64,000 bases of DNA from Candidatus Zixiibacteriota bacterium. Lineage in GTDB: Bacteria; Zixibacteria; MSB-5A5; GN15; FEB-12. Positions 25,967 to 45,581 of the stretch are shown here, one piece after another. Under the pieces are notes generated by a model that was given only the letters and a program-made list of their open reading frames with translations, did not search any database and was not told where the DNA came from. The position numbers and the translations under genes were made by a program. Positions within the stretch are counted from its first letter, which is position 1. Each line of letters begins with the position of its first letter. The stretch covers positions 9,170 to 73,169 of the forward strand of contig DAISVY010000012.1 in the NCBI GenBank assembly GCA_036826635.1, in the 5' to 3' direction.

Positions 25967-26023
25967 AATCCGTGGTCCGTTCCGAGGATTTCTTTAACCG
26001 TCGGAACCCTCAGATAGCCTTTC

Positions 26024-28038: not shown

Positions 28039-28950
28039 TTGCAGATTTCGATAAGCGGCCTCACCAAACGCTACCCCGGAGGTAAATATGCCATCAGGGA
28101 TATTGATCTGAACATCGGCAGCGGCATGTTCGGACTTCTCGGCCCCAATGGCGCCGGCAAAACCACCCTGATGCGAATTCTGGTCACGATGCTCAAACCG
28201 ACCACCGGGCAGGTTCTGGTCGACGGGATGGACCTGCAGAAACACCGCCGCCAGATTCGCAAGATGGTCGGGTACCTGCCGCAGGATTTCAGCACGTTTT
28301 CGAAACTGGCCGTCTGGGAATTTCTGGATTACGCCGGATCGCTCAGCGGTCTGCGCAATCGCAAAGAGCGTTCGGCCCAGGTGGACCGACTGCTCGACAG
28401 CGTGGGGCTTTTTGACGTCCGTGACCGACGAGCCGACAAGTTATCGGGCGGCATGAAGCGACGCCTCGGGATCGCCCAGACTTTGGTGGGTGATCCCAAA
28501 ATCATGGTCGTCGACGAGCCTACGGTCGGTCTTGATCCTCAGGAGAGACTGCGCTTTCGCAACCTCATGGCCGACCTGACCCGACAGGACATCATCATCA
28601 TTCTGTCCACCCATATCGTGGGTGATATTTCTTCAACCTGTACCGACATGGCCCTTCTGAACACGGGCAAGATCGTATTCAACGGTCCGCCTACCGATCT
28701 GGTGACAGCCGCCAAAGGACGGGTATGGAAAGTCTCCGCTTCGGATCAGGAATTAGACAACCTCAAGGAACGTTACCCGGTTATATCGACCGTACCTGCC
28801 GAGCACGGATATGAAGTTCGACTGGTCGCCGATGAAGTCGCCGGCAAAGCGGCCGAACCGGTGGAACCGAACCTGGAAGATGCGTACATTCTATACATGC
28901 AATCGGTCGGCTACGATGTCGATCTGGAGGCAGGAGTCAACGAATGGTAA
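28039..28950 (+). CDS. ABC transporter ATP-binding protein (ABC-2/DrrA-like type)
   Basis: Walker A GPNGAGKTT, Q-loop YLPQD, signature LSGGMKRRLGIA, Walker B IMVVDEPTVGLD, H-loop STHIV. TTG start as in the track. Confidence 0.88.
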   Translation: MQISISGLTKRYPGGKYAIRDIDLNIGSGMFGLLGPNGAGKTTLMRILVTMLKPTTGQVLVDGMDLQKHRRQIRKMVGYLPQDFSTFSKLAVWEFLDYAGSLSGLRNRKERSAQVDRLLDSVGLFDVRDRRADKLSGGMKRRLGIAQTLVGDPKIMVVDEPTVGLDPQERLRFRNLMADLTRQDIIIILSTHIVGDISSTCTDMALLNTGKIVFNGPPTDLVTAAKGRVWKVSASDQELDNLKERYPVISTVPAEHGYEVRLVADEVAGKAAEPVEPNLEDAYILYMQSVGYDVDLEAGVNEW

Positions 28951-28971
28951 TCGGACAAGGAGTTCCCGTTC

Positions 28972-31900: not shown

Positions 31901-32346
31901 GTTCCGACGATCCGTACGTTGGTTTCAACGCCTGGCGACCGCCCAGCAACTGGAGCGCCACCACCGACAACCAATTTTTCGGACGGTTTATCCATTCCGC
32001 TTATTACAAGAAATCAGGCGATGGTGACAGCAAAGCCGCGTGGAACACCCGGATAGACCAGGCGGGCGATTATGACGTCTACTACTACTGTGAGGGCCAG
32101 ACACACAGGCCACCGATGTTCCGGCGACCCGAACCGGGCAGACGTATGGATAGTGGCGAGAAACATTTCCTGGTATACCACGAAGACGGAGTAGAAGAAA
32201 TATCCCTGGACCTGAACGGTGTGGATGACGGCTGGAATCATCTGGGAACATTCAGACTGGCCGAAGGGGCCAACCGCATCGAACTGACGGATCAAAACGA
32301 ACTGGAATACGTCACCGCCGACGCCGTCAAGTGGGTCAGGCACTGA
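28972..32346 (+). CDS. ABC-2-type permease fused to an M1-aminopeptidase-like ectodomain (no HExxH) and a golvesin-like C-terminal domain
   Basis: 1124 aa. Residues 1 to about 300 contain 6-7 hydrophobic helices. From about residue 310 there is an M1 N-terminal beta-sandwich-like region (CNLEIEHEGTVITGKASLAAVN...LLFTLNPGLEV) and a catalytic-domain-like KLDLVEVPLQF, but no GAMEN or HExxH anywhere in the ORF. The last 140 aa or so (...AWNTRIDQAGDYDVYYY...GWNHLGTFRLAEGANRIELTD...VTADAVKWV) resemble golvesin/Xly C-terminal domains. Confidence 0.7.
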   Translation: MVDLWAVWCVARYEAKLLFRSWAFRIFTILGLTILVFMNIGLGTSIGSSPFFFHSFAGSLPLTNIKLLNIYQGIIAAFLATEFIKRDRRHDSTQVVLARSFSNVDYILGKVIGILAVFAVLNILVLAFGFVIHAFFSSSPFAWQPYILYPLLISLPTLVFIIGVSFVLITLLRSQAIVFVIMLGYSLLVLILLGPKLFCIFDSYAFYQPLVYSDFIGLGNTGEVLLLRGAYLLVGIGLISLTALTLKRLPQSQTGNVLAGALAVVCFATSLILGTVYMHDHYAQRDFREQLRNTSAAVVEIPTVMVTDCNLEIEHEGTVITGKASLAAVNHSQQPLDSLLFTLNPGLEVSKVTSATGDVAFTRNRHLLWIKPDAALLPDDSVALTIVYSGRVDSRYCYLDIDDERVEGYYQLWLYSIPKQYVQSETDCVQLTPEAGWYPIASLSPGTAFPAATTRDYAHYSLRVTVDEELTAISQGQTEIEQTDGNKTYTFRETSRLPQISLTIGRYDRREIVVDSIVYSLYTLPGHDFFSPYFDQITDTLPHLIRDLKNEYETALGFEYPYDKLDLVEVPLQFYSCRRLWTTAQEMVQPQIVFIPESGTLCAGVDFQQMKRRDEHRQERANQADSPLEIQARYFASFARTDLLGLEGSGWSVRNNPNIEPRMEIFPNFISYASQVSSARCPVLNYAFEAYFKDKVTVPEDPHWRSWLGLTDVERANLILQKQPLVNVISDSELEPGTIANVLEAKGGYLLTILEARVGEETFTSAIADFLTEHRFRNIHEEDLDAFAASLGQDNLAAIIDAWYRDTLLPGYLIDDIESYGVVDGERTRTQFKCRLTNPTTVDGVVALTLRYRMQRGGGMGWWMRMENDADFSQKLLIPAMSSRYVGLVLDDPLAEMTIDTYVSQNIPSLVSHHFRDQDLRQGAQPYSGDSLVSLGDTSPTEEGLVVDNEDSGFEIMSHTEESWLRTALLSLFGVKSSDDPYVGFNAWRPPSNWSATTDNQFFGRFIHSAYYKKSGDGDSKAAWNTRIDQAGDYDVYYYCEGQTHRPPMFRRPEPGRRMDSGEKHFLVYHEDGVEEISLDLNGVDDGWNHLGTFRLAEGANRIELTDQNELEYVTADAVKWVRH

Positions 32347-32361
32347 TACAAAAGGACCGCT

Positions 32362-33894
32362 ATGACACGTGTCTTCATTTCCGAAAAACGCCGGAGCGCA
32401 ACAGATCACACTTTCCAAAGTCAGAAGGGCCGGATCGGTGCGGTTTGCCTGTGGCTGCTTGTCGCAACAGCCTTTCTTGTCGTTCCCGGACGTCTGTCGG
32501 CCGAACAATTAACTCTCGAAGAGGCCCTTCAGATCGCCTTCGAGAAGAGCCCGACCATGCAACAGTCAGCCTTGAATCTGAAGATGAGCGAGAGTAACCT
32601 CAAGGCTCAGCAGGCGTCACTCAAATCGCAACTCAGTCTGACCCTCACCCCATACCAATACTCCAAGGACCGAGTTTTCAGCAACCTGGTTTCAGCCTAC
32701 AACTCCGAGGAACAAACCCGCAGCGCCGCCCAGTTTTCGATAGTCCAACCCATCAAGTGGACCGATGGCACCCTCAGCATATCGGAGACGGTCGACCGCC
32801 GGGAAGCCTCCAGCGATTATACCGGAAGCTACAAACAGACAAGTTACAGCAACACTCTCCAGTTGACCTTTTCGCAGCCGCTGTTCACCTACAACCGAAC
32901 GCAATTGAACCTGAAGGAACTCAAGCTGGCTCTCGAGAACGCCGAACTCAGTTTCGCGATCCAAAAGCTGAGCATCGAGAAACAAGTCACCCAAGAGTTT
33001 CTGGACCTCTACCTGAATCAGCGCAGTGTTGAAATTTCCCAGGAAGAACTGGACAATGCCAACGAGAGCTATGAGATAATCGAAAGCAAGGTCAACGCCG
33101 GGATTTCCGCTCCCGAAGAGTTGTATCAGGCCGAGCTTACCCGGGCCGACAGCCGGGGAACACTTCAGACCAATCGGACCACTCTGGATAACTCTCTCGA
33201 CAATTTCAAGATGTTGCTGGGCCTGCCGCTGGAAACCGAAATCGAGGCTATCGCCGACGTGCAGAAACTCCTGGTCGATGTCGACCTGGCCAAAGCCGTT
33301 AACCACGGCCTGCAATACCGCATGGAACTCCGCCAGCATGATATCGCCATTCAGAACGCCATGTGGGATCTTACACAAACCGGCGCCGACAACGAATTCA
33401 AGGGAGAGATCAACCTTTCTTACGGCCTGACCGGCACCGACGACGAATTCAACAACATCTACGATTCCCCCAGCCAGACGCATTCGGTGGAACTCAGTTT
33501 CAACATCCCGCTCTTCGACTGGGGCCAGAAAAGACATCGCTTAGATGCGAGCGAAGCCCAGGTGGAGAGCCAGCGTGTCTCGGCCGAGGAAGAACAAAAA
33601 CAAGTCATGTACGAAATTCGTGAGGCTTTCCGAAGCCTGCAGAATCAGCAAACGCAAATAGAAATCGCCGAGCAAAACGTTCGTAACGCCCGACTTACTT
33701 ATGAGATAAACCTCGAACGTTATCGTAACGGCGATCTGTCGTCCAAAGATATCAGCTTCTATCAAACCCAGCTTTCGCAGCAGCAGTTGAGCGAGGTACA
33801 GGCATTGATCAATTATAAAATATCCCTGCTTGACCTGAAGATTCGCTCGCTTTGGGATTTCGAAAACAACGTACCCGTATTGGGGCAGGAATAG
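32362..33894 (+). CDS. TolC-family outer-membrane efflux protein
   Basis: 510 aa. Signal-like N-terminus, LTLEEALQIAFEKSPTMQQ opening typical of OEP proteins, two coiled-coil/barrel repeats, and NLERYRNGDLSSKDI. Confidence 0.85.
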   Translation: MTRVFISEKRRSATDHTFQSQKGRIGAVCLWLLVATAFLVVPGRLSAEQLTLEEALQIAFEKSPTMQQSALNLKMSESNLKAQQASLKSQLSLTLTPYQYSKDRVFSNLVSAYNSEEQTRSAAQFSIVQPIKWTDGTLSISETVDRREASSDYTGSYKQTSYSNTLQLTFSQPLFTYNRTQLNLKELKLALENAELSFAIQKLSIEKQVTQEFLDLYLNQRSVEISQEELDNANESYEIIESKVNAGISAPEELYQAELTRADSRGTLQTNRTTLDNSLDNFKMLLGLPLETEIEAIADVQKLLVDVDLAKAVNHGLQYRMELRQHDIAIQNAMWDLTQTGADNEFKGEINLSYGLTGTDDEFNNIYDSPSQTHSVELSFNIPLFDWGQKRHRLDASEAQVESQRVSAEEEQKQVMYEIREAFRSLQNQQTQIEIAEQNVRNARLTYEINLERYRNGDLSSKDISFYQTQLSQQQLSEVQALINYKISLLDLKIRSLWDFENNVPVLGQE

Positions 33895-33904
33895 GAGAAA
33901 ACGC

Positions 33905-34963
33905 ATGAGACGCTGGCAAACTTCACTCATGCTGTGTGTTACCATAACCGTCATGGCGGGCTGCGGTGACCAGGGTCCGGATATTGACATCGAATCCTCG
34001 ATACCGGTGCGGGTCGAGGAAGTAACAGCCGGTCCCATGAAGGAGTATGCCTTCGCTACCGGCACCCTGGTAGCGGCCGAGGAAGCGACACTCGACGTCC
34101 AGCAATCCGGATACTACCATTTGCAAACCAACCCGCGCACCGGCACCACGTTTGCCATGGGAGATCAGGTCCGAAAAGGGGACACGATCATTACACTCCA
34201 AAACGCCGAATTCGAAAACCAGGTGGCGATTGATTCCAAGAAACTCAATCACGAAATCTCCGAACGTGAATTCGAAAAACAAAAAGGCCTCTACGAAAAA
34301 GGCGGCGTGACGATGCGTGAATTGGCCGACGCGGAACAGTCGTTTATCGATGCCCGCTACGCATACGAAAACGCCAAGCTGCAACTGGCCAAATTGCAGA
34401 TCGTGGCCCCGTTCGACGGCATACTGGTCGATCTGCCTTTCTACAGCCCGGGCCAGTTGGTTGAATCCGACGCTACCATGGCCCAGATAATGGATTACAG
34501 ACACCTGTATGCGGAAGTTACACTGCCGGGGAAAGAGATGGAGCGCGTCGAGCGTGGTCAGACGGCCATCGTCACCAACTACGCCGACCCGCTTGACACT
34601 CTCACCGGCCAGGTTACGCAGGTGTCACCGACACTGGACCCCGACAACCGCATGTTCAAACTGACGCTTGAGATAGATAACGACAGCCTCTCTTTCCGCC
34701 CCGGCATGTTCGCCAAAATAGATATAGTCGTCGAAGAACGCGATTCCACGCTGGTCATCCCCAAGGATATCATCCAGGAACGCCACGGCGCCCAAACCGT
34801 GTTCGTGGTAGACAAAGGGATAGCGGTCGAGCGACGTATCGAGACAGGCCTGTCCAACCGTGAGCAGGTAGAAGTTGTCAACGGTCTGGAAGCCGGTGAC
34901 CGACTCGTCGTTGAGGGTTTCGAGACCCTGCGTCATCGCTCCAAGGTCAAGGTAACCAAGTAA
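33905..34963 (+). CDS. Efflux RND periplasmic adaptor (membrane-fusion protein), lipoprotein
   Basis: Lipobox-like VTITVMAGC; alpha-hairpin region (YENAKLQLAKLQIVAPFDGIL); beta-barrel/MP domains (RPGMFAKIDIVV...VFVV...VERRIETG). AGGAG RBS. Confidence 0.85.
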   Translation: MRRWQTSLMLCVTITVMAGCGDQGPDIDIESSIPVRVEEVTAGPMKEYAFATGTLVAAEEATLDVQQSGYYHLQTNPRTGTTFAMGDQVRKGDTIITLQNAEFENQVAIDSKKLNHEISEREFEKQKGLYEKGGVTMRELADAEQSFIDARYAYENAKLQLAKLQIVAPFDGILVDLPFYSPGQLVESDATMAQIMDYRHLYAEVTLPGKEMERVERGQTAIVTNYADPLDTLTGQVTQVSPTLDPDNRMFKLTLEIDNDSLSFRPGMFAKIDIVVEERDSTLVIPKDIIQERHGAQTVFVVDKGIAVERRIETGLSNREQVEVVNGLEAGDRLVVEGFETLRHRSKVKVTK

Positions 34964-34982
34964 CCGACGGGCGGAATTCGAC

Positions 34983-37900
34983 ATGTATAAGCTGGCTCGC
35001 TTTTCCGTTAAATATCCCACCACCGTTCTCATGGTGGTCCTGGCCGTTATCCTTCTCGGTTACATTTCGTTCAGCCGTCTGGGCGTCGACCTCTTCCCCG
35101 ACCTCAACAGCCCTCGTCTTTTCATCGAGATCGAAGCCGGTGAACGCCCGCCGGAGGAAATGGAGCAGCAGTTCGTCACCCAGATGGAAGCGGTAGCGGC
35201 CCGCGGAAACGGCGTGATCAATGTTTCTTCCATCTCTCGGGTCGGACAGGCGCTTCTGACGGTTGAATACACGTGGCAGACCGACATGGACGCAGCTTTT
35301 CTGGACCTTCAGAAACTGGTCGCCGATTTCACTCAGAACAGCGAGGCCGACGAGATAACCGTCTCCGAACATGATCCCAACGCCGACCCCGTGGTGGTAG
35401 CGGTCTTTTCGCACCCTGAGATCGACGATCTGGACAAACTGCGCCAGACAGCCGAAAACATTATTCGCAACGAACTGATCCGTCTCCCGGACGTGGCGGC
35501 GGTGGATATCGTCGGGGCTCGTGAGCGGGAAGTTGAAATCCTGACCGATCCCTACACGCTGGAAGCACACGGATTGACCGCCTCGCAACTCGCTTCAACC
35601 ATAAGCAGCGCCAATCGCAACATGTCGGGCGGTTCAATCGTGGAAATGGGCATTCGTTATGTCCTGCGCGGGGTGGGAGAATTCACTTCCGAAGACGACA
35701 TCCGTAATCTGATCGTCGCCTACGAAACGCAAGAAGAGACCGGACAACCGCTCAAACGCATCCCCACGTATCTGCGGGAAGTGGCGGAAGTACACACCGT
35801 CCTGAGTGAACCGGAGAATATCGTACGCTATAACGGCCAACGCTGTCTGGCTCTTGAAGTGTTCCGGGAAGCACGGGCCAATACGGTCGATGCGGCTGCC
35901 AGTACCGTTGAGCAACTGGAAAAACTGGGGCGTTCGTTGCCGGGGTATGAACTTCGCGTGATTCAGAATCAGGCCGGTTTTATCAAGTCGGCCATCACCG
36001 AAGTCGAAGAAACCGGACTGATCGGCATTATCCTGGCCGTGTTGGTGTTGTACCTTTTTCTCCGTCGCATCGGCGTCACCGTGATCATCAGTCTGGCCAT
36101 TCCGATTTCCATTATAGCAACTTTCAACCTGATGTTCTTCAATGACCTTTCTCTGAACATCATGACTTTGGGAGGCCTGGCGCTTGGCGCCGGCATGCTT
36201 GTCGATAACGCCATTGTCGTAATGGAAAACGTGTTCCGACATCTCGAAGAAGGCAAACCGCTTACCGAAGCAGCCGTATTGGGAGCCGGCGAAGTCGGCG
36301 GAGCTATCACCAGTTCCACCCTTACCACCGTCGTCGTGTTTCTCCCCATCGTTTATCTGCACGGGGCGGCGGGCGAACTCTTCCGCGACCAGGCCTGGAC
36401 TGTCGCCTATTCGCTGATCTCTTCCCTCTTCGTGGCCCTGGCCGTGATTCCCATGCTCTGCTCGCGCCTGTTGAAACGCGGGAATCGAAGCGTCCCCACC
36501 AGTTCCGTCAGTTTCCCCGGCTATGGCAGATTCCTGCAAAAAATCTTAAAGCGACGCGGCTTAGTCATTACGGCGAGCCTGGTGCTGGTAATCTTAACCG
36601 CCCTGTTAATTCCGACCATCGGCAGCGAATTCATGCCTCGCGCCGACCAGGGCGATTTGTATATCAATCTGACCCTGCCCGAGGGTACCAGTCTCGAACG
36701 CACCGAGGGAACCGTGCGTAATCTCGAAGCCGTCATAGACCAGAAGTACGGCTCACAACTCAGCAATATATATTCGCGAGTGGGACCATCAGGGACATCG
36801 ACAAGTGAGCTTGAAGCGCTCAGTGACGAAAACAGCGCCGTGATGTACCTGACACCGGCTGTCGACAGCGACCTGCCCACCGACGAACTCGCCGCCGGCA
36901 TTGAACGCGAACTGGAAAAACTGCCCGACGTGGAATCGCAACTGACGGTGCAACAAACGGCCCTGCAATCAATCCTGGGGACCAGCTCCGCCCCTCTGGT
37001 AGTGGAGATAAAAGGCAAAGAACTCGACGAACTTTCGCGGCTGACCGACAGCGTATACGCCCGCCTGTCCCCGATGAGTGAACTGGCCAATATCGAGACG
37101 AGCTTCGAGCAGGGCCGCCCGGAAATCGATATCGTTGTGGATCGAACGGTGGCCACCCAATTTTCTCTCACCGTCGAAGAAGTGGGTTCGCAGGTACACG
37201 ATATTCTCTCCGGCACCGAAAGCGGAGAAATGGAAATCAATGGTGAATACGCCGACATCATTGTCCGCGGCCCGGATGTGTCACTAACCGAACTGGCCGG
37301 CATCATGCTGGAGACCTCATCGGATCGCCGTGTCAGACTGGACGAGGTAGCTCGACTGGTCCCGGCTGTCTCCCCCCGCGAAATCAACCGCAATAACCAG
37401 ACAAGGGTAGCCACGGTGAGCGCCAGCCTGGTTGGCGACGCGCCTTTCGACAAGGTAGCAACAGCCGTCAAAAAAGCCATCGCCGACGTGCCGCTCCCGC
37501 AGCAGTATTCGTTCGCCGTAACCGGCGAGGAAGAGCTTCGGCAGGAAGCCTTCGGCAATCTGGAATTCGCCCTGCTTCTGGCCGTCATACTGGTGTACAT
37601 GGTCATGGCCGCTCAGTTCGAATCGCTCCTGCACCCGTTCGTAATTCTTCTGACCATTCCGCTGGCCGGGGTGGGCGCCGTGCTGCTTCTGCTCATTCTC
37701 GGCATGCCGCTGAATATCATGTCTTTCATCGGTATGATCATGCTGGCCGGTATAGCCGTAAACGACTCGATCATCCTGGTGGACCGCATAAACCAAAATC
37801 GCCGGGGCGGACAGGATCTCGACAAGGCCATCATCAACGCCGGTCAGACGCGTATCCGACCGATCATCATGACCAGCGTTACGACTATTTTGGCGCTGCT

Positions 37901-38078
37901 GCCGCTCACCATCGGTCTCGGTGAAGGGGCATCATTGCGGGCTCCCATGGCGGTGGCGGTTATCGGCGGGCTGATCACTTCAACCGCCCTGACCCTGGCC
38001 GTCATACCGACGGTATATCACCTTCTGGCCGGTAAAGTACGGATTGAAACGGAGTCCACCACCCGGGCGCAGATATGA
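34983..38078 (+). CDS. RND (AcrB/HAE-type) efflux permease
   Basis: 1031 aa with a 12-TM, two-large-loop layout. Family blocks: ALGAGMLVDNAIVVMENV, MLAGIAVNDSIILVD, GQTRIRPIIMTSVTTILALLPL. Confidence 0.9.
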   Translation: MYKLARFSVKYPTTVLMVVLAVILLGYISFSRLGVDLFPDLNSPRLFIEIEAGERPPEEMEQQFVTQMEAVAARGNGVINVSSISRVGQALLTVEYTWQTDMDAAFLDLQKLVADFTQNSEADEITVSEHDPNADPVVVAVFSHPEIDDLDKLRQTAENIIRNELIRLPDVAAVDIVGAREREVEILTDPYTLEAHGLTASQLASTISSANRNMSGGSIVEMGIRYVLRGVGEFTSEDDIRNLIVAYETQEETGQPLKRIPTYLREVAEVHTVLSEPENIVRYNGQRCLALEVFREARANTVDAAASTVEQLEKLGRSLPGYELRVIQNQAGFIKSAITEVEETGLIGIILAVLVLYLFLRRIGVTVIISLAIPISIIATFNLMFFNDLSLNIMTLGGLALGAGMLVDNAIVVMENVFRHLEEGKPLTEAAVLGAGEVGGAITSSTLTTVVVFLPIVYLHGAAGELFRDQAWTVAYSLISSLFVALAVIPMLCSRLLKRGNRSVPTSSVSFPGYGRFLQKILKRRGLVITASLVLVILTALLIPTIGSEFMPRADQGDLYINLTLPEGTSLERTEGTVRNLEAVIDQKYGSQLSNIYSRVGPSGTSTSELEALSDENSAVMYLTPAVDSDLPTDELAAGIERELEKLPDVESQLTVQQTALQSILGTSSAPLVVEIKGKELDELSRLTDSVYARLSPMSELANIETSFEQGRPEIDIVVDRTVATQFSLTVEEVGSQVHDILSGTESGEMEINGEYADIIVRGPDVSLTELAGIMLETSSDRRVRLDEVARLVPAVSPREINRNNQTRVATVSASLVGDAPFDKVATAVKKAIADVPLPQQYSFAVTGEEELRQEAFGNLEFALLLAVILVYMVMAAQFESLLHPFVILLTIPLAGVGAVLLLLILGMPLNIMSFIGMIMLAGIAVNDSIILVDRINQNRRGGQDLDKAIINAGQTRIRPIIMTSVTTILALLPLTIGLGEGASLRAPMAVAVIGGLITSTALTLAVIPTVYHLLAGKVRIETESTTRAQI

Positions 38079-41000
38079 TTGAACGCATTATCAGACGGCC
38101 GATTCTCGTGGCCATGATAATCATCGGGCTTTGCCTGCTGGGTGTCGTTTCGTATACCAAACTGCCCGTGGAGCTCATCCCCTATACGGAACTGCCGATG
38201 CTGGTCGTGCAGGTAAGCACCGCGCTCGACGCCGATCCCGACTACGTGGAAAAACACGCCATCATCCCGCTCGAAAGTGCTATTGCCGGACTCGAAGATA
38301 TCGAGAGCATCGAATCGTACATCGATCGCCGTCGCGCCATTATCTTTGTTTATTACCATCAAAATTCCGATGCCAAATACGCCTATCTCAAGCTTCAGGA
38401 ACGGGTCGAAAGCGCCCGCTCGTTATTGGGTGACGACTTCTACGCCAGCGTCCTGAAAATCGACACCGAACAACTTTCCAATCAATTCATGTCACTGCAG
38501 GCCAGAGGCGAGGGTGATCTCGATCAGATACGGGAAGTGGTGGACGAAGAAATAACCGAAGAGCTGGAGAAAATAGACGGTATCGCCAGTGTTGCCGTCT
38601 ACGGCGGTCGACAGCACTCTATCGAAGTCGTTCTCGACGAAGGAGCATTGCGCTCGCACAATATCACCGCTTCCCAGGTTTCTTCCAAAATCAGCGGCGG
38701 GACTGCCGACCGCCAGTATCTGGGCCAGGCTATCGAAGGGAACAAGCAGTATTTCGTCAACCTGACCGCCGACTATACGGCTGTTCCGGCCCTTGAGGAT
38801 ATTGTCATCAAGGAAGAAGGTCCGGTTCTTCTCAAACACGTGGCCACGATCATCGACGGCGGCGCGGAAGAAGAGACAATTTCCCGCGTCAATGGTATGG
38901 AATCGATTTCCATTTCGCTTGTCCGTGATCAACAAGCCAACCTTCTCAGCCTTTCTCGCGAGACACGCCGGGAGATCGAGCACCTGAATAAAAAAGTGGC
39001 AGCCACCGGGGTGGAACTGGTCATTCAAAGCGACTCGGCCGAAGAGATCGAAGAGAATATAGAAGTCATCAAGATGCTGGCCCTTATAGGCGGCCTGCTG
39101 GCGGTGGTGGTTCTGTGGTTGTTTCTCCGCAATCTTCCCCTGGTTCTGGTAGTGGCGGCATCGATACCGATATCGGTACTCATATCGTTGAATTTCTTCT
39201 ACGCCTTCGACATCACGATCAACACCCTCACGCTGGTGGGTATAGCTATCGCCATCGGCATGCTCATCGACAACAGCGTCGTTGTCCTGGAGAACATTCA
39301 CCGCAAAGTGGCCCACGGCAATACCCCCTATCGGGCGGTCGTGGACGGAACCCACGAGGTCTGGCGGGCGGTATCGGCGGCCACTCTTACCACCGTCTGC
39401 GTCTTCGTCCCGTTCATCTTCTCCAACAGTTTTCTGGTTAAGACATTAGGCCGACACGTCGGCATATCGATTATCTCGACTCTCCTGGTGTCACTTGGCG
39501 TGGCTTTCGTCCTGATACCTCCCGCGACTTATTATTTCCTCTCTCGCAAGAAAGGCCGGGTGGAATCTTTCAACGTCATATCTCAGAAGAACCGACTACA
39601 GCAAATCTATACCCTGTTGCTCAAGTCGTGCCTGAGATTCCCGGCCCGAACACTGATTGTCAGTGTGGTGGTTTTCTTCGCCAGTGTGCTTATCTGTCTG
39701 GCCGTAAGTATCAACGTCCCCGAGGAAGTGGAACTGGACGAATTCAATCTCTACGCCACCATGCCGTCCGGGACAACACTGGCCACGGCCGACGAGCAGG
39801 TTAAAGAGATGGATCAGCGGTTGAGTGATATCGCCGAGCTCAAAGAACGTCGGGCCAACATCGAAGAAGACAACATCGTGTTTACGTTCGAGCTGAAGGA
39901 AGACTACGAAGATATCGCCCGGCGTAATCTCAGCGAGGTCAAGGACGAAGTGCTCGAGAAACTTTCCAACGCCTATCCCCTGATCGACTTCACATATGAG
40001 GAACCGGCTTCCGACGTCCGTTTCCGGGGCGGTGGCGGCGGCGGTCAGGGCATGCGCGGTTTCACTCGTTTGCTCGGTATCGGCACATCCGAGGAGAGCG
40101 TCGTTATTCGGGGACAGGATTTGGGGATGCTGCGCTCCATCGCCGAAGACGTTCGTTATAACCTCGATAACCTGGAAACCATCAAGAGCACGCAACTTTC
40201 GGTTACCGAACACGATCCCGGCATAGATCTGCTGCTTGATCAGTCGGCCATGCGTCATTTCAACGTCGGGTCGGCCAATATCATCGCCGAACTGTCCGGT
40301 TTTCAAAGCGAGGTTTCCTCGGGAGTAACGCTCAAACGCGGGACCGACGAAATAGATATCATCCTCAAAAAGAACGAACTGGAAGACAAAACTTCCGACG
40401 ATCTCAGAGAACTTGAGGTGGCCGGAGGCGACGGCGGCACGGTGCCGATAGTACAACTCGCACGATTCCTTTACACCAGCGGCACGTCCAACATCAACCG
40501 CGTAAATCAGGAAAAAGAAGTTTCGGTCGTTTATCGCTTTGAGGATGATGTCGAAAGTTCCAAACCGTTACTGGAAAACGCTCGCCTCACCGTGGACGAA
40601 ATAGCGGCCGGAATAAGCCCGCCGTCGGGAGTGGCCATCGAGGTGGTCCACGACGAGACCGATCTCTCGGAGTTCTATTTTCTCATTTTCGCGGCCGTGA
40701 TTCTTATATACATGATTCTGGCCTCGGTTTTCGAGTCTTTAGCTACCCCGCTGGTCATCATGTTCACTATCCCGCTGGCCACCATCGGTGCCCTTTGGGG
40801 ACTGATTCTGACCGGCAACTCGATCCTTAACGCCAATTCGATCATCGGCCTGTTTATCCTTCTTGGGGTGGTGGTCAACAACGGCATTATTCTGATCGAT
40901 TATTCGCGTCTGCTTCGCCGGCAACGCATGCGCCCGGGCAGGGCCTTGATCACCGCCGGACAGGCACGAATCAGACCGATCCTCATCACCGCCATCACCA

Positions 41001-42772
41001 CCGTGCTGGCCATGCTGCCACTGGCTATGGGCAAGGCCGAGTACGTGGCCAAAATCGGAGCACCTTTCGCTATCGTCGTCATTGGCGGACTGAGTTTCGG
41101 TACGCTGTTCACACTACTGTTAATTCCGACAGTATCCTTCGGAACCGATAATGCCATGGCCTGGTGGCGACAGTTGAGCGGCCGCAACAAAGCAATCCAG
41201 ACAGCGGTTCTGATCATCGGCGTATTCCTTATTTACAAGAATATCGACTCGTTCCTCTGGCAAATGGTCGACCTGATCGCTCTTCTGGCCGTCATCCCGG
41301 CCTTTACGTATTTCACCCAGACGAGCCTGCGACGAAGCCGTCGAGCCATTATCCCGACCGGCGATTCCATTACCATCACCATCCGCAACGTCGTCAAGGT
41401 CTACGACGATTTCTCCCGGTTCGTCCGCGAATGGCGCAAAGGGGAACGCCAGCATCAGCATGGCTCACCCGATGAACCGGTAAAGAACCGTGACCTGCTG
41501 CTTACCCGGATGTGGCAGCTTCCCCTGTATGTTTTCCTGTTCTACTTTACATATTTGTATCTGGAGAGCGGGTTCTGGATTTTCGTCTTCTCGGTCGTGT
41601 TTTACATCTATTCGCTTAATCTCTGGCGACCGCTGTTGCTGACGAGTGGAATATCAACCGGGAAGTGGCGATGGCCTCGAACACGCCGGTGGTTGTACAA
41701 ACTGATTTTCTGGCTGGGCCCGTTGCTCAATCTGATCTGGTTCAAACTTACCTGGTCCGGTCTGGCGCTGGTCATTGTTCTGGGATTTGCCTGGTATCTG
41801 GCGGCCTTGACTTACAACACTTCATCGCGCCTCTATCGGAAGCGGATCGATATCAATCGTCTTACCGGACGATTCGTCAGGATTCGCAAATTCTTCTATC
41901 GACTGGTCAAAGCCACGCCTCTGATCGGAAAACGCCGGGTTCCGTTTGTCGCTCTGAATCAGGTGTCAATGGAGATCGGCAGCGGCATGTTCGGACTTGT
42001 CGGTCCCAACGGGGCAGGCAAAACAACGCTCATGCGGGTTATTTGCGGGATTCTTCCGCCGGCTCGCGGCACGGTAAAAATCAATGGTATCGATCTGGTC
42101 AAACAACGCGAGGAACTTCAGTCGCTCATCGGCTACCTGCCACAGGAATTCGGCACCTACGAGAATATGACAGCTTACCAGTTTCTGGATTACCAGGCGC
42201 TTCTGAAAGGCCAGTGGAATGACCGACAGCGGCGGGAAACGGTAGAGAAAGCTATTCATTCGGTCCATCTCGAGGACAGCCGCAACACGAAAATAAAGTC
42301 TTTCTCCGGAGGCATGAAACAGCGCGTCGGTATCGCCCAGACGCTGTTGCACCTGCCGCGTATTATGGTGGTGGACGAACCGACCGCAGGACTGGACCCG
42401 CGCGAACGGATTCGGTTCAGGAACCTTCTGTCGGAACTGGCGCGGGACCGCGTTGTTATTTTCTCGACTCACATCATTGAAGACATCTCCAGCAGTTGCA
42501 GCCGACTGGCCGTGCTGGATGATGGTGCGGTCAAATTCCTGGGCTCTCCCAGGGAAATGGTGGAACTGACCAGAGGCTATGTCTGGCAGGCCCAGATAGC
42601 CCGGGAGCAGTTCGAAAAAGTACGGAACAACCTGCGGATAGTGCACCACATGCGCGACGGCGATCTTATCAGAGTAAGGGTACTCGCGTCCAAACAGCCG
42701 CTGACCGAAGCTATCGAGGTAACCCCGACGCTGGAGGATTCGTACCTTTGGTTACTGAATCAACAAGGGTAG
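38075..42772 (+). CDS. RND efflux permease fused C-terminally to extra TM helices and an ABC ATPase domain (hybrid RND-NBD protein)
   Basis: An uninterrupted 1565-codon ORF; ATGA overlap with the preceding RND gene. Residues 1 to about 1030 are a complete RND layout (IAIGMLIDNSVVVLENI, LLGVVVNNGIILID, GQARIRPILITAITTVLAMLPL). Residues about 1040-1095 add two more hydrophobic helices. Residues 1099-1565 form an ABC NBD: ITITIRNVVKVYDD, then a 176-aa insertion, then Walker A GPNGAGKTT (nt 42002-42028), YLPQE, SGGMKQRVGIA, MVVDEPTAGLD and STHII. Confidence 0.8.
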   Translation: MIERIIRRPILVAMIIIGLCLLGVVSYTKLPVELIPYTELPMLVVQVSTALDADPDYVEKHAIIPLESAIAGLEDIESIESYIDRRRAIIFVYYHQNSDAKYAYLKLQERVESARSLLGDDFYASVLKIDTEQLSNQFMSLQARGEGDLDQIREVVDEEITEELEKIDGIASVAVYGGRQHSIEVVLDEGALRSHNITASQVSSKISGGTADRQYLGQAIEGNKQYFVNLTADYTAVPALEDIVIKEEGPVLLKHVATIIDGGAEEETISRVNGMESISISLVRDQQANLLSLSRETRREIEHLNKKVAATGVELVIQSDSAEEIEENIEVIKMLALIGGLLAVVVLWLFLRNLPLVLVVAASIPISVLISLNFFYAFDITINTLTLVGIAIAIGMLIDNSVVVLENIHRKVAHGNTPYRAVVDGTHEVWRAVSAATLTTVCVFVPFIFSNSFLVKTLGRHVGISIISTLLVSLGVAFVLIPPATYYFLSRKKGRVESFNVISQKNRLQQIYTLLLKSCLRFPARTLIVSVVVFFASVLICLAVSINVPEEVELDEFNLYATMPSGTTLATADEQVKEMDQRLSDIAELKERRANIEEDNIVFTFELKEDYEDIARRNLSEVKDEVLEKLSNAYPLIDFTYEEPASDVRFRGGGGGGQGMRGFTRLLGIGTSEESVVIRGQDLGMLRSIAEDVRYNLDNLETIKSTQLSVTEHDPGIDLLLDQSAMRHFNVGSANIIAELSGFQSEVSSGVTLKRGTDEIDIILKKNELEDKTSDDLRELEVAGGDGGTVPIVQLARFLYTSGTSNINRVNQEKEVSVVYRFEDDVESSKPLLENARLTVDEIAAGISPPSGVAIEVVHDETDLSEFYFLIFAAVILIYMILASVFESLATPLVIMFTIPLATIGALWGLILTGNSILNANSIIGLFILLGVVVNNGIILIDYSRLLRRQRMRPGRALITAGQARIRPILITAITTVLAMLPLAMGKAEYVAKIGAPFAIVVIGGLSFGTLFTLLLIPTVSFGTDNAMAWWRQLSGRNKAIQTAVLIIGVFLIYKNIDSFLWQMVDLIALLAVIPAFTYFTQTSLRRSRRAIIPTGDSITITIRNVVKVYDDFSRFVREWRKGERQHQHGSPDEPVKNRDLLLTRMWQLPLYVFLFYFTYLYLESGFWIFVFSVVFYIYSLNLWRPLLLTSGISTGKWRWPRTRRWLYKLIFWLGPLLNLIWFKLTWSGLALVIVLGFAWYLAALTYNTSSRLYRKRIDINRLTGRFVRIRKFFYRLVKATPLIGKRRVPFVALNQVSMEIGSGMFGLVGPNGAGKTTLMRVICGILPPARGTVKINGIDLVKQREELQSLIGYLPQEFGTYENMTAYQFLDYQALLKGQWNDRQRRETVEKAIHSVHLEDSRNTKIKSFSGGMKQRVGIAQTLLHLPRIMVVDEPTAGLDPRERIRFRNLLSELARDRVVIFSTHIIEDISSSCSRLAVLDDGAVKFLGSPREMVELTRGYVWQAQIAREQFEKVRNNLRIVHHMRDGDLIRVRVLASKQPLTEAIEVTPTLEDSYLWLLNQQG

Positions 42773-42776
42773 CGTT

Positions 42777-43523
42777 ATGATACAGTCGACGACATCTTCC
42801 CCCGCCTCACAAACGAGCCTTCTCTCCGGTCTTCGGAGTCTGGTAGCTTTCTTCCGGTACAACGCCACTCACGTTTTCGCGGGGAAATTCATCTATTTCC
42901 TGGCCCTGGGGATCGGGATTTTCATTCTCGTGACGGTAATATACGTTTTGGACAGCAGCACCCCGCCGGATGCCGAGGCCATTTACTACTTTCTTTTGGT
43001 CCCGGGGGTATTGTTGATTTTCTATCCGTCGGCCTATTCCATTCAGAGCGACGTCGACAGCCGCATGATAGAAACGCTCTTCGGTATTCCCGACTACCGT
43101 TACAAAGTCTGGCTGGCCCGAAACATCACCATGTATCTGGTCGTGACCGCCCTGCTGTTTTTACTGGCGTTGTTTTGCCGACTGACGATGGCCGATTTTT
43201 CGATATGGTCAATGTCGTTTCAACTCCTGTTCCCGGTGGCGTTCATCGGCAGTCTGGCGTTTATGACCGCAACCATCACGCGCAGCGGCAACGGCACCGC
43301 CGTCATCATGGTGATAATCCTTCTTGTCTTCTGGATTGCCGCCGAACCGCTCGAGGGCAGCCGCTGGAATCTGTTTCACAACCCCTTCACTCAGGTGGAT
43401 CAGTTCGAGACTTTTTTGTGGGCGGAGACGACGCTTTATAACCGCATTTACCTGCTGACAGGTGCGGCTGTGGCCACCATGTTCGGTCTGCTGCGTCTGC
43501 AACGTCGCGAGAAATTGATCTGA
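42777..43523 (+). CDS. ABC-2-like six-TM permease
   Basis: 248 aa with about six hydrophobic helices. It starts 4 nt after the NBD-bearing gene, and its size and position match the membrane partner of an ABC-2 ATPase. I saw no diagnostic motif. Confidence 0.5.
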   Translation: MIQSTTSSPASQTSLLSGLRSLVAFFRYNATHVFAGKFIYFLALGIGIFILVTVIYVLDSSTPPDAEAIYYFLLVPGVLLIFYPSAYSIQSDVDSRMIETLFGIPDYRYKVWLARNITMYLVVTALLFLLALFCRLTMADFSIWSMSFQLLFPVAFIGSLAFMTATITRSGNGTAVIMVIILLVFWIAAEPLEGSRWNLFHNPFTQVDQFETFLWAETTLYNRIYLLTGAAVATMFGLLRLQRREKLI

Positions 43524-45206: not shown

Positions 45207-45209
45207 ATG

Positions 45210-45581
45210 CTAATACGTTATGCCGCACATGGCGGCCGCTTCCTTTTCATCGGATCGAATCGTGAGATAATCGGCCAGATCGAGCACCTCAAGAATATGC
45301 CGGATATGATCGGACACGTTGCACAAGACTATATCGCCGCCCCGCTCGCGAAAAGACTGGACAGTGCCAAGTATAGAACCAACCCCGGCCGATGACAAAA
45401 ACTCGAGGCGAGCCATATCGATGATGACGTACTTGTAACCTTTTTTCTCTCCGGTCGATATAATCTTGACCATCTCATGAGCGTTTTGATTGTCCAAAAC
45501 CGGTCCGGGGTCCACAACTACCGTATCGTCCCGCAAAACACGCTCTTTTATCTCTTCGTACCCCATCCTTATTGGCTCCAT
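45210..45581 (-). CDS. STAS-domain protein (anti-sigma-factor antagonist, SpoIIAA/RsbV-like)
   Basis: 123 aa. IIDMARLEFLSSAGVGSILG contains the conserved phosphorylatable Ser context. Also GGDIVLCNVSDHIRHILEVLDLADYLTI. Confidence 0.8.
   Translation of the reverse strand: MEPIRMGYEEIKERVLRDDTVVVDPGPVLDNQNAHEMVKIISTGEKKGYKYVIIDMARLEFLSSAGVGSILGTVQSFRERGGDIVLCNVSDHIRHILEVLDLADYLTIRSDEKEAAAMCGITY

What the first reader, a model, noticed from the sequence alone, without database searches (positions are those of the whole stretch)
38075..42772. An RND efflux pump fused to an ABC ATPase domain in a single 1565-codon ORF
Seen in the sequence: one uninterrupted reading frame encodes three parts in order. 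First is a complete 12-TM RND permease (residues 1 to about 1030, with both large periplasmic loops and the usual TM4/TM10-region blocks). Next come two additional hydrophobic helices (AIQTAVLIIGVFLIY and LIALLAVIPAFTYF). Last is a full ABC nucleotide-binding domain with Walker A GPNGAGKTT at nt 42002-42028, Q-loop, signature SGGMKQR, Walker B MVVDEPTAGLD and H-loop STHII. Established knowledge: RND pumps are proton-motive-force antiporters, and ABC NBDs couple ATP hydrolysis to ABC-type membrane domains. The two energy-coupling modules are normally on separate machines (AcrAB-TolC versus MacAB-TolC). I know of no described family that joins them covalently. Inference: an even number of added helices keeps the NBD cytoplasmic, so the topology is self-consistent. 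That argues for a real hybrid rather than an accidental read-through.
Basis: partly seen in the sequence, partly recalled or inferred. Interest (0 to 1): 0.88.

Follow-up and report, generated by a model that had tools for sequence, protein, structure and literature searches.

The report
RND efflux pump fused to ABC ATPase
One 1565-residue protein really does join a complete proton-driven RND efflux pump subunit to a working-looking ATP-driven ABC motor; the fusion is conserved in dozens of bacterial species, including cultured and human-gut Bacteroidota, no study of it was found, and it probably ties an ATP-driven inner-membrane exporter to an RND pump that spans the cell envelope.

Summary
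ORF 38075-42772 is uninterrupted. It encodes a full 12-TM RND permease (Pfam ACR_tran, residues 1-1019, E 1e-153) and a complete ABC ATPase whose catalytic motifs are all invariant in 115 homologues.

It is not an assembly artefact. Thirty of 31 species genomes with enough upstream DNA carry the same 1562-1616-residue ORF. They include Marivirga, Draconibacterium, Prolixibacter and Parabacteroides isolates.

It has six helices in three hairpins, not two helices. The first strand of the ATPase, with its A-loop tyrosine, lies about 170 residues upstream of the rest, and four membrane helices are inserted between them.

The gene sits in a conserved 7-gene cluster (28039-43523): paralogous ABC ATPase, 6-TM/M1-like protein, outer-membrane factor, adaptor, RND1, the fusion, and a 248-residue protein. 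That last protein is named 'hypothetical' in RefSeq and IMG, but it folds like a type V (ABC-2) permease.

The best reading is an ABC-2 exporter tethered to a two-paralogue RND tripartite pump. The unusual proton-relay residues (D-N, N-N) also occur in unfused relatives, so they do not argue for an ATP-driven RND.

No literature on the fusion was found; databases name it only automatically. I rate it a new variant of a known kind, interest about 0.72.

The parts
28039..28950 (+). Stand-alone DrrA/GldA-type ABC ATPase (303 aa). It is a paralogue of the fused ATPase (43% identity) and the first gene of the conserved 7-gene cluster.
   Evidence: Pfam ABC_tran E 6e-33. NCBIfam best matches are drrA and GldA. 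BLASTP against the fused NBD gives 43% identity over 274 aa. It lies upstream of the 1124-aa gene in every metagenome locus with DNA upstream of that gene.
28972..32346 (+). 1124-aa membrane protein: about 6 N-terminal TM segments, a partial M1-peptidase-like region with no HEXXH motif, and a C-terminal Golvesin_C domain. Probably the permease partner of the upstream ATPase.
   Evidence: Pfam Golvesin_C 992-1122 and Peptidase_M1 738-803. Hydropathy peaks in residues 18-275 and no HEXXH found. Its C-terminus lies directly upstream of the OMF gene in about 30 loci.
32362..33894 (+). Outer-membrane factor (TolC/NodT-like), 510 aa.
   Evidence: Pfam OEP E 6e-48. NCBIfam type_I_sec_TolC and outer_NodT. 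Conserved at this position.
33905..34963 (+). Periplasmic adaptor (membrane fusion protein), 352 aa.
   Evidence: NCBIfam RND_mfp 195 bits, above its cut-off of 94.9. Pfam HlyD_D23. Present in all 29 loci that reach this far.
34983..38078 (+). RND1: an ordinary 1031-aa RND permease, paralogue of the fused RND (about 27-29% identity). Its stop codon overlaps the start of the fusion gene (ATGA).
   Evidence: Pfam ACR_tran 5-1015, E 1e-220. Conserved immediately upstream of the fusion in all loci. The overlap is seen in the DNA.
38075..42772 (+). The fusion ORF, 1565 aa: RND2 (12 TM), three TM hairpins, ABC ATPase, C-terminal domain.
38075..41131 (+). RND2 domain, residues 1-1019: 12 TM segments and two large periplasmic loops. 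TM4 reads Asp399-Asn400, TM10 Asn935-Asn936, TM11 Arg965...Thr972.
   Evidence: Pfam ACR_tran matches model positions 1-1015 of 1021. Best PDB match is MdtB, E 7e-73, with residue-level alignment. Motif conservation.
41180..41335 (+). TM13-TM14 hairpin, residues about 1036-1087.
   Evidence: Hydropathy. AF2 helices 16-36 and 40-67 of the model, pLDDT about 87-94.
41369..41413 (+). Displaced first beta-strand of the ATPase with the A-loop tyrosine (ITITIRNVVKVYDDF; Tyr1110).
   Evidence: AF2/DSSP assigns a strand at model residues 81-90; every other strand in the model lies in the ATPase. The pattern matches the N-terminus of the paralogue, ISISGLTKRY. The Tyr is invariant in 17 sequences and at least 90% conserved in 115.
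41411..41944 (+). Insertion of about 170-180 residues inside the ATPase's beta1-beta2 hairpin. It carries two further TM hairpins (nt 41516-41641 and 41675-41839) and basic cytoplasmic loops.
   Evidence: AF2 helices 128-169 and 181-235 of the model. Hydropathy. K+R counts are 14, 5 and 14 in the cytoplasmic loops against 0-1 in the periplasmic turns. Conserved motifs REW.xG and WQxPL.
41945..42574 (+). ABC ATPase core: Walker A 42002-42028, Q-loop 42137-42154, signature 42305-42325, Walker B with catalytic Glu1435 and the D-loop 42365-42397, H-loop 42464-42478.
   Evidence: Pfam ABC_tran. The motif residues are invariant in 115 homologues. Foldseek best matches are TM_1403, NosF, ABCA1/3/4/7 and LptB.
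42575..42769 (+). C-terminal beta-rich domain of the ATPase, as in DrrA/NosF/TM_1403-type ATPases.
   Evidence: AF2 strands at model residues 483-517, pLDDT above 90. The alignment to the paralogue and to drrA/GldA models runs through this region.
42777..43523 (+). 248-aa six-TM protein named 'hypothetical' in RefSeq and IMG, with a predicted type V (ABC-2) permease fold. Inferred membrane partner of the fused ATPase. It starts 4 nt after the fusion's stop codon.
   Evidence: No Pfam or NCBIfam hit for the window protein. AF2 pLDDT 88.8, pTM 0.85. Foldseek top hits are PmtCD, ABCG2, NosY, Wzm, CcmB, TarG and KpsM; the three PmtCD hits have TM-score 0.57-0.60 and probability 1.00. 23 of 68 homologues weakly match ABC2_membrane_2. 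Always adjacent to the fusion.

Best explanation
The ORF encodes a genuine, conserved hybrid membrane protein of 18 TM helices: a complete RND permease (RND2), three extra helical hairpins, and a cytoplasmic DrrA/GldA-class ABC ATPase. The proposed mechanism has four steps. (a) The ATPase pairs with the 248-residue ABC-2-type permease encoded 4 nt downstream, forming a type V ABC exporter (two ATPase domains plus two permeases). (b) This exporter is covalently anchored, through the six linker helices, to the RND2 subunits of a tripartite pump built from the adaptor, the outer-membrane factor and the two RND paralogues. Two fused RND2 subunits plus one RND1 subunit per trimer would supply exactly the two ATPase domains that an ABC dimer needs. 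(c) The ATP-driven module moves or extracts an amphipathic substrate from the cytoplasm or inner leaflet to the outer leaflet or periplasm. (d) The proton-driven RND module captures the substrate there and expels it through the outer-membrane channel, so the whole envelope is crossed by one assembly. Shown here: the domain composition, intact catalytic motifs, topology, strict synteny and wide conservation. Inferred: the ATPase-permease pairing, the RND heterotrimer and its 2:1 stoichiometry, the hand-off, and the nature of the substrate.
For: The fusion is real. One ORF carries both Pfam domains. Thirty of 31 species genomes with complete upstream DNA have an intact 1562-1616-aa ORF. RefSeq proteins exist for cultured Marivirga, Draconibacterium, Prolixibacter, Parabacteroides and Bacteroides sp.. 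Further 1548- and 1560-aa examples come from other MAGs, and an independent assembly gives the same gene. The linker is conserved and specific to this family: 92 hits in 1.84e9 representatives, and every full-length one has the same architecture. The ATPase looks competent: the Walker A Lys, Q-loop Gln, signature SGG, Walker B Asp-Glu, D-loop and H-loop His are invariant in 115 sequences, and the A-loop Tyr is at least 90% conserved. It belongs to the ABC-2/type V class. The downstream protein is always adjacent and has a confident model whose best structural matches are all type V permeases, plus weak ABC2_membrane_2 hits. The tripartite context (OMF, adaptor, two tandem RND paralogues) is conserved in all loci. 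Both RND paralogues keep the TM4 Asp and the TM11 Arg/Thr. Their D-N / N-N pattern is shared by ordinary unfused RND pumps, so proton coupling of the RND part remains the default. Topology follows the positive-inside rule. From my own knowledge: tandem RND paralogues such as MdtBC work as 2:1 heterotrimers (Kim, Nagore and Nikaido 2010), and RND pumps capture substrates delivered to the periplasm by single-component pumps (Tal and Schuldiner 2009).
Against: No structure of a complex, no co-purification and no genetics exist for any member. The pairing of the ATPase with the small permease rests on adjacency and a predicted fold. Foldseek E-values for that fold are weak (0.02 and above), and the window protein itself has no Pfam hit. 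Heterotrimer formation and the 2:1 ratio are analogies, not tests. The cluster contains a second ATPase (28039-28950) and a second 6-TM protein (28972-32346), which allow other stoichiometries. The RND halves lack the AcrB Asp408 and Lys940 equivalents, so proton coupling is assumed rather than shown. The substrate is unknown.
Confidence: 0.5

Rival explanations
1. ATP-powered or ATP-gated RND pump. The fused ATPase domains transmit ATP-dependent movements through the six linker helices into the RND transmembrane domain. This would replace or gate the proton relay, by mechanotransmission in the manner of MacB. The 248-aa protein would be an accessory.
For: The ATPase is tied to RND TM12 by three conserved hairpins and three short connections. 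Both RND paralogues lack the AcrB Asp408 and Lys940 equivalents. The ATPase is the most conserved part of the protein, at 55-69% identity against 34-58% for the RND part.
Against: The same D-N / N-N pattern occurs in unfused 1022-1047-aa RND pumps of Acetoanaerobium and Pontibacillus, so it is a subgroup trait and not an adaptation to the fusion. The TM4 Asp and TM11 Arg/Thr are conserved in both paralogues. A conventional ABC-2-type permease partner is strictly co-conserved. RND proteins have no known coupling helix for an ABC ATPase (my own knowledge).
Confidence: 0.1
2. Heterodimeric ABC-2 transporter. The fused ATPase pairs with the stand-alone paralogue (28039-28950), and the 248-aa permease pairs with the 6-TM N-terminus of the 1124-aa protein. 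One asymmetric ABC exporter, with a large periplasmic M1-like/Golvesin_C domain, would then be attached to a trimer holding a single fused RND2 subunit.
For: All seven genes are co-conserved in order. The two ATPases are close paralogues, 43% identical with shared extended motifs. The 1124-aa protein has about 6 N-terminal TM segments, as an ABC-2 permease would.
Against: Both ATPases keep fully canonical motifs, with no degenerate site of the kind many heterodimers show. Each ATPase gene is directly followed by its own membrane partner, the usual layout of two separate homodimeric systems. No sequence similarity was detected between the 248-aa protein and the 1124-aa protein.
Confidence: 0.15
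3. Neutral 'Rosetta-stone' fusion. Two neighbouring operon genes (RND2 and an ABC ATPase) merged. The halves work independently, and the tether only secures co-expression or co-localisation.
For: Operon neighbours often fuse. The ATPase has its own permease, and the RND part has its own adaptor and OMF.
Against: The join is not a simple loss of a stop codon. It is a 270-residue, six-helix, family-specific segment, part of which is inserted inside the ATPase fold. It has been kept across at least five phylum-level lineages. No convincing unfused version was found: the ~590-aa hits are truncated gene calls that start inside RND TM11-12, and only one ambiguous 526-aa sequence exists.
Confidence: 0.15
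4. Assembly or sequencing artefact (chimeric join or indel) that creates a false read-through in this window.
For: The window comes from a metagenome-derived contig. Some long-read MAGs show the gene broken by frameshifts (L001, L002, L035).
Against: The same architecture is intact in 30 other species and in finished isolate genomes. An identical gene appears in an independent assembly. There is no compositional break at the junction. The junction region is conserved at the protein level.
Confidence: 0.01

Closest known systems
MdtABC / MuxABC-OpmB type tripartite pumps with two tandem RND paralogues
   Same: One adaptor gene is followed by two paralogous RND permease genes with an outer-membrane factor in the cluster. 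The best solved-structure match of the fused RND is MdtB.
   Different: The second RND carries about 545 extra residues (six TM helices plus an ABC ATPase). The relay residues are D-N / N-N instead of D-D / K. Heterotrimer formation was not tested.
Type V (ABC-2) exporters with separate ATPase and 6-TM permease: DrrAB, PmtCD, NosFY, Wzm-Wzt, TarGH
   Same: The ATPase scores best with the DrrA and GldA models, and its fold matches TM_1403, NosF and ABCA ATPases, including the C-terminal domain. The downstream 248-aa protein has the type V permease fold.
   Different: The ATPase is not soluble. It is membrane-anchored by six helices and covalently joined to an RND permease. Its first strand is separated from the rest by an insertion of about 170 residues. 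The permease family has no Pfam or NCBIfam model.
MacAB-TolC (ATP-driven tripartite efflux)
   Same: An ABC ATPase works in the context of an adaptor and an outer-membrane factor.
   Different: MacB is a type VII ABC protein: an N-terminal ATPase, 4 TM helices and a periplasmic domain (review PMC8277102). Here the periplasmic machinery is a full RND permease, and the ATPase is C-terminal and of the ABC-2 class.
AcrAB-TolC / HAE-1 RND pumps
   Same: 12-TM RND fold with two periplasmic loops, and adaptor and OMF partners.
   Different: About 25-30% identity only. AcrB Asp408 is replaced by Asn and Lys940 by Asn. NCBIfam subfamily scores are far below their cut-offs. The protein has the C-terminal ABC module.
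Unfused RND pumps of the D-N / N-N subgroup (e.g. Acetoanaerobium noterae, Pontibacillus sp.)
   Same: The same TM4 VDN, TM10 VVNN and TM11 RxRP motifs, at 33-35% identity to RND1.
   Different: They are 1022-1047 residues long, with no linker and no ATPase.

Membership tests
RND permease superfamily (Pfam ACR_tran, PF00873) | Full-length match to the family model above its gathering score | tested here: met
   513.9 bits against a cut-off of 28; residues 1-1019 cover model positions 1-1015 of 1021.
RND permease superfamily (Pfam ACR_tran, PF00873) | 12 TM helices with two large periplasmic loops (TM1-2 and TM7-8) | tested here: met
   Hydropathy gives TM segments at 10-28, 331-481 (five segments), 528-546 and 867-1017 (five segments), with loops of about 300 residues each.
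HAE-1 (AcrB-type) RND pumps | Proton-relay set: TM4 Asp407-Asp408, TM10 Lys940, TM11 Arg971/Thr978 | tested here: not met
   TM4 reads D399-N400 and TM10 reads N935-N936; only the first Asp and the Arg/Thr are kept. The same pattern occurs in RND1 and in unfused relatives.
NCBIfam RND_permease_2 (NF033617) and MdtB/MdtC equivalogs | Score above the curated cut-off | tested here: not met
   459.6 bits against 1250; MdtB 266.9 against 1584; MdtC 251.3 against 1774.
Tripartite RND efflux system | Adaptor and outer-membrane factor genes in the same cluster | tested here: met
   RND_mfp scores 195 bits (cut-off 94.9) at 33905-34963, and OEP is at 32362-33894. Conserved in the related loci.
Heteromeric (MdtBC-like) RND pump | Two paralogous RND genes in tandem after one adaptor gene | tested here: met
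   RND1 (34983-38078) and RND2 (38075-) are 27-29% identical, and the pair is found in all 29-30 loci.
Heteromeric (MdtBC-like) RND pump | Assembly as a 2:1 heterotrimer | not testable with these tools
   Needs co-purification, cryo-EM or multimer modelling.
ABC ATPase (PF00005) | Walker A, Q-loop, signature, Walker B with catalytic Glu, D-loop, H-loop | tested here: met
   107.7 bits against a cut-off of 25. All motif residues are invariant in 115 homologues; coordinates.
ABC ATPase (PF00005) | N-terminal beta1 strand with A-loop aromatic residue contiguous with the domain | tested here: not met
   The strand and Tyr1110 are present and conserved, but about 170-180 residues with four TM helices separate them from beta2.
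DrrA / GldA ATPase equivalogs (TIGR01188, TIGR03522) | Score above the curated cut-off | tested here: not met
   170.6 against 312.45 and 171.7 against 402.6. These are the best ABC families but fall below threshold.
Type V (ABC-2) exporter | Partner permease with six TM helices, an N-terminal interface helix and the type V fold | tested here: inconclusive
   The AF2 model is confident (pLDDT 88.8, pTM 0.85). The 25 best Foldseek matches are all type V permeases, with TM-score up to 0.60 and probability 1.00 for the top three, but E-values are 0.02 or worse. 23 of 68 homologues hit ABC2_membrane_2 weakly, best E 0.0014; the window protein has no hit.
Type V (ABC-2) exporter | Physical ATPase2:permease2 complex with ATP-dependent transport | not testable with these tools
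   Needs biochemistry or a structure.
MacB-type (type VII) ABC tripartite pump | N-terminal ATPase fused to a 4-TM FtsX-type domain with a MacB periplasmic domain | tested here: not met
   No FtsX or MacB_PCD hit. Here the ATPase is C-terminal and follows an RND domain.

The most novel reading that the evidence does not exclude
The fused ATPase dimer does not merely sit next to the RND pump. Through the six conserved linker helices it gates or drives the RND conformational cycle. That would make this the first RND transporter energised or controlled by ATP hydrolysis, or by both ATP and proton-motive force.
Probability: 0.1. Interest if true: 0.95.

Novelty: new variant of a known kind. Interest (0 to 1): 0.72.

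Why it matters
RND pumps (proton-driven, capturing substrate from the periplasm) and ABC exporters (ATP-driven, exporting from the cytoplasm or inner leaflet) are treated as separate machines. Their cooperation in drug efflux has so far been inferred only from genetics. A conserved protein that joins the two covalently points to a single assembly carrying a substrate from the inner membrane across the whole Gram-negative envelope using both energy sources. It offers a natural system in which to study hand-off between pump classes. It also shows a structural oddity: an ABC ATPase with four membrane helices inserted in its first hairpin.

The family occurs in cultured Bacteroidota (Marivirga tractuosa, Draconibacterium orientale, Prolixibacter) and in human-gut Parabacteroides, so the questions can be tested directly. 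Current annotation hides the system: RefSeq calls the fusion 'efflux RND transporter permease subunit' and its permease partner 'hypothetical protein'.

Tried and rejected
1. Loss of the proton relay as a signature of an ATP-driven RND. I first noticed Asp-Asn in TM4 and Asn-Asn in TM10. The plain partner RND1 and unfused RND pumps of Bacillota share the pattern, so I rejected this as fusion-specific evidence.

2. An unfused lineage. Many ~590-aa hits looked like stand-alone linker-ATPase genes. They all start at conserved Met980/985 inside RND TM11-12, and most sit on short contigs, so they are truncated gene calls. One 526-aa sequence (P0292) that starts at TM13 remains ambiguous.

3. Locus search with a linker-only alignment (A1). 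It failed because no stretch was conserved enough. I repeated it with linker plus ATPase (A2).

4. An HMM of the 248-aa family against ORFs next to 45 stand-alone ATPase relatives gave one weak hit (L044, E 4e-5). The permease family is therefore essentially confined to the cassette.

5. BLASTP of the 248-aa protein against the 1124-aa protein found no significant similarity.

7. Literature. Eight full-text searches (one further query was rejected for syntax), one of them on accession numbers, and two targeted reads found nothing on RND-ABC fusions.

8. The neighbouring histidine kinase and partner-switching genes are not conserved next to the cassette elsewhere, so I did not count them as part of the system.

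Full report
**1. Observation**

The window has one open frame from 38075 to 42772 on the + strand, 1565 codons long. Pfam places ACR_tran on residues 1-1019 (E 1e-153, nearly the whole model). It places ABC_tran on residues 1294-1438 (E 9e-31) of the same polypeptide. NCBIfam assigns the N-terminal part to RND permeases. It assigns the C-terminal part most closely to the DrrA and GldA ATPases of ABC-2 systems.

GC content is even across the junction. An independent Logan assembly of run SRR2043635 contains the identical 1565-residue gene.

**2. The fusion is real and conserved**

I searched residues 1001-1565 against the 5.8-billion-protein collection. More than 100 clusters came back at 46-62% identity; nearly all cover 90-100% of the linker plus ATPase, and most also carry an ACR_tran hit. 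Their source labels include Zixibacteria, Aminicenantes, Krumholzibacteria, Latescibacterota, Bacteroidales and Spirochaetales MAGs.

A scan of one genome per GTDB species found 35 loci with the full linker plus ATPase. In 30 of the 31 loci with enough upstream DNA, the frame is open for 1562-1616 residues. The exception, L035, is a MAG whose genes at this locus are broken by several frameshifts.

The family includes cultured organisms and finished genomes:
- Marivirga tractuosa (WP_013453215.1, UniProt E4TUV9) and M. sericea
- Draconibacterium orientale, D. mangrovi and D. sediminis
- Prolixibacter bellariivorans and P. denitrificans
- Parabacteroides massiliensis, with P. johnsonii carrying the adjacent permease
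- Bacteroides sp. 224 and Maribellus maritimus

Further 1548- and 1560-residue examples were called by other pipelines in an Acidobacteriota MAG and on a 4.2-Mb contig.

Using only the 270-residue linker as a query against 1.84 billion cluster representatives gave 92 hits. Every full-length hit is 1550-1590 residues long, with the linker starting at about residue 1016-1071 and ending near 1300. An artefact or accidental read-through is excluded.

**3. Anatomy of the junction**

Hydropathy and an AlphaFold2 model of residues 1021-1565 (115-sequence alignment, mean pLDDT 84.8, pTM 0.70) show three helical hairpins:
- TM13-14, about residues 1036-1087
- TM15-16, about residues 1148-1189
- TM17-18, about residues 1201-1255

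Between the first and second hairpin lies a conserved beta-strand, residues 1101-1110 (ITIRNVVKVY). It has the pattern of the first strand of an ABC ATPase; the paralogue in the same cluster starts ISISGLTKRY. It ends in a tyrosine that is invariant in 17 homologues and at least 90% conserved in 115. That is the position of the A-loop aromatic residue. All other strands in the model belong to the ATPase, so this strand must pair with them.

Sequence alignments to stand-alone ATPases begin only at their residue 18, which corresponds to fusion residue about 1293. The ATPase is therefore split. Strand 1 and the A-loop come first. An insertion of about 170-180 residues follows, carrying four membrane helices. 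Then comes the rest of the domain and a C-terminal beta-rich domain.

The cytoplasmic loops are strongly basic (14, 5 and 14 Lys+Arg). The three periplasmic turns have 0-1. The topology is coherent, with 18 TM helices and a cytoplasmic ATPase. All catalytic residues are invariant in 115 homologues: Lys1316, the Q-loop Gln, SGG, Asp1434-Glu1435, the D-loop and His1466.

**4. Surroundings**

The gene is the sixth of seven co-directional genes, 28039-43523:
1. A DrrA/GldA-type ABC ATPase, 43% identical to the fused ATPase.
2. A 1124-residue protein with about six N-terminal TM segments, a partial M1-peptidase-like region without HEXXH, and a Golvesin_C domain.
3. An outer-membrane factor.
4. A periplasmic adaptor.
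5. RND1, an ordinary 1031-residue RND permease whose stop codon overlaps the fusion's start.
6. The fusion.
7. A 248-residue membrane protein that starts 4 nt after the fusion's stop.

The adaptor-RND1-fusion-small protein order is found in every locus that extends far enough. The OMF gene and the C-terminus of the 1124-residue protein lie upstream in about 30 loci. In metagenome contigs recovered with the 1124-residue protein, the same gene order is present as far as each contig extends; L087, L094 and L095 run from the ATPase into the fusion's own ATPase domain.

The flanking genes are not conserved with the cluster. These are rnfCD on one side, and a histidine kinase with a STAS/SpoIIE partner-switching set on the other.

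**5. The 248-residue protein**

It has no Pfam or NCBIfam hit. Its roughly 3400 homologue clusters are unnamed or 'hypothetical' in the 120 listed, and RefSeq and IMG call the orthologues 'hypothetical protein'; a single UniRef entry reads 'ABC-2 family transporter protein'.

Its AlphaFold2 model is confident (pLDDT 88.8, pTM 0.85): an N-terminal helix followed by six long helices. The 25 best Foldseek matches in the PDB are all permeases of type V (ABC-2) exporters:
- PmtCD (three hits, TM-score 0.57-0.60, probability 1.00)
- NosY, ABCG2, Wzm, CcmB, TarG and KpsM

The E-values are weak, 0.02 or worse. Twenty-three of 68 homologues also match ABC2_membrane_2 weakly. The fused ATPase matches TM_1403, NosF and the ABCA ATPases, the same class. 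I conclude, with moderate confidence, that the fused ATPase and the 248-residue protein form an ABC-2-type exporter.

**6. Is the RND half still proton-coupled?**

Alignment to MdtB and MdtF shows that the AcrB relay is incomplete. Asp407 is kept (Asp399), but Asp408 is Asn. Lys940 is Asn. Arg971 and Thr978 are kept. This looked at first like evidence for an ATP-driven RND, but two results argue against that.

First, the plain partner RND1 has the same pattern in this window and in 29 orthologues. Second, the closest unfused relatives in the plasmid collection have the same VDN and VVNN motifs. These are the 1047-residue Acetoanaerobium and 1022-residue Pontibacillus pumps, 33-35% identical. 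Proteobacterial hits have DD and KN. The pattern is a trait of an RND subgroup, not of the fusion.

**7. Mechanism**

The best-supported reading (confidence about 0.5) is a composite machine. An ATP-driven type V exporter, made of two fused ATPase domains and two 248-residue permeases, is tethered through the six linker helices to the RND2 subunits of a tripartite pump. That pump is built from RND1, RND2, the adaptor and the outer-membrane factor.

ABC ATPases act as dimers, while RND pumps are trimers. A 2:1 RND2:RND1 heterotrimer would give exactly one ATPase dimer per pump. MdtB2C is a precedent, cited here from my own knowledge and not tested. The ABC module would deliver an amphipathic substrate to the outer leaflet or periplasm, and the RND module would expel it through the outer-membrane channel.

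The rivals are:
- Direct ATP gating or driving of the RND cycle (0.10).
- A heterodimeric ABC exporter that also uses the stand-alone ATPase and the 1124-residue protein (0.15).
- A mechanistically neutral fusion of operon neighbours (0.15). The elaborate, conserved, intra-domain linker and the absence of unfused forms argue against it.
- Artefact (0.01).

**8. Comparison with known systems and novelty**

The parts belong to known superfamilies, RND and ABC, and both Pfam memberships are met. The protein fails the curated thresholds of every named subfamily. It lacks the HAE-1 relay set, and its ATPase has a non-contiguous first strand.

Eight full-text searches returned nothing on an RND-ABC fusion; one of them used accession numbers of isolate proteins, and a further query was rejected for syntax. 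Targeted reads of a 2021 review of tripartite pumps (first 300,000 characters) and of a 2024 RND phylogeny paper also found nothing. Subscription-only papers and TCDB could not be searched.

Databases hold the proteins under automatic names. RefSeq uses 'efflux RND transporter permease subunit'. IMG uses 'AcrB/ABC-type multidrug transport system ATPase subunit'. I rate it a new variant of a known kind: an uncharacterised, widely conserved hybrid architecture. Interest is about 0.72.

Noticed in passing
window 28972-32346 (+), with 28039-28950 (+): A 1124-aa protein with about six N-terminal TM segments, a partial M1-peptidase-like region that has no HEXXH zinc motif, and a C-terminal Golvesin_C domain. 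It is preceded by a DrrA/GldA-type ATPase. The pair is conserved directly upstream of the efflux cassette in about 30 loci. It looks like a second ABC-2 system with a large, probably non-catalytic, periplasmic domain.
   Followed up: partly
window 43545-47921 (-): A histidine kinase, a STAS protein, a STAS plus HATPase_c_2 protein (anti-sigma-kinase-like) and a HAMP-SpoIIE phosphatase: a partner-switching module convergent with the cassette. It is not conserved next to the cassette in other genomes.
   Followed up: partly
window 49920-59498 (-) and 886-4632 (-): A 3192-aa giant protein with beta-helix/NosD-like and Big_2 domains, and a 1248-aa protein with a T9SS C-terminal sorting domain (Por_Secre_tail). 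This agrees with an FCB-group organism.
   Followed up: no
window 24998-27403 (-): rnfD and rnfC homologues, divergent from the first gene of the 7-gene cluster. The + strand ORF 26072-27586 (504 aa, no family hit) overlaps rnfC and is probably not a gene.
   Followed up: partly
L028 3753-6924 (Marivirga tractuosa ac6, complete genome): RND1 is split into two ORFs (485 and 558 aa) while the fusion gene is intact. This is either a sequencing error or a strain in which the partner RND is a pseudogene.
   Followed up: no
P0292 (526 aa): A sequence that begins with Met at the position of TM13 and contains the linker plus ATPase but no RND part. It could be a rare unfused form or a truncated gene call.
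   Followed up: partly
The search for homologous proteins listed no hit longer than 1000 aa, although the collection holds many 1548-1616-aa members. The pile of ~590-aa hits starts at conserved Met980/985 inside RND TM11-12; these are truncated calls, not separate genes.
   Followed up: yes
L001, L002, L035: In these MAG contigs (157 kb to 613 kb) the fused gene and RND1 are broken into several ORFs by frameshifts, which could be mistaken for unfused genes.
   Followed up: partly
fusion residues 396-404 and 933-940; RND1; L096, L097: An RND subgroup that includes unfused pumps of Bacillota has Asp-Asn in TM4 and Asn-Asn (or Asn-Asp) in TM10, in place of the AcrB Asp-Asp / Lys set. How these pumps relay protons is not explained here.
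   Followed up: partly
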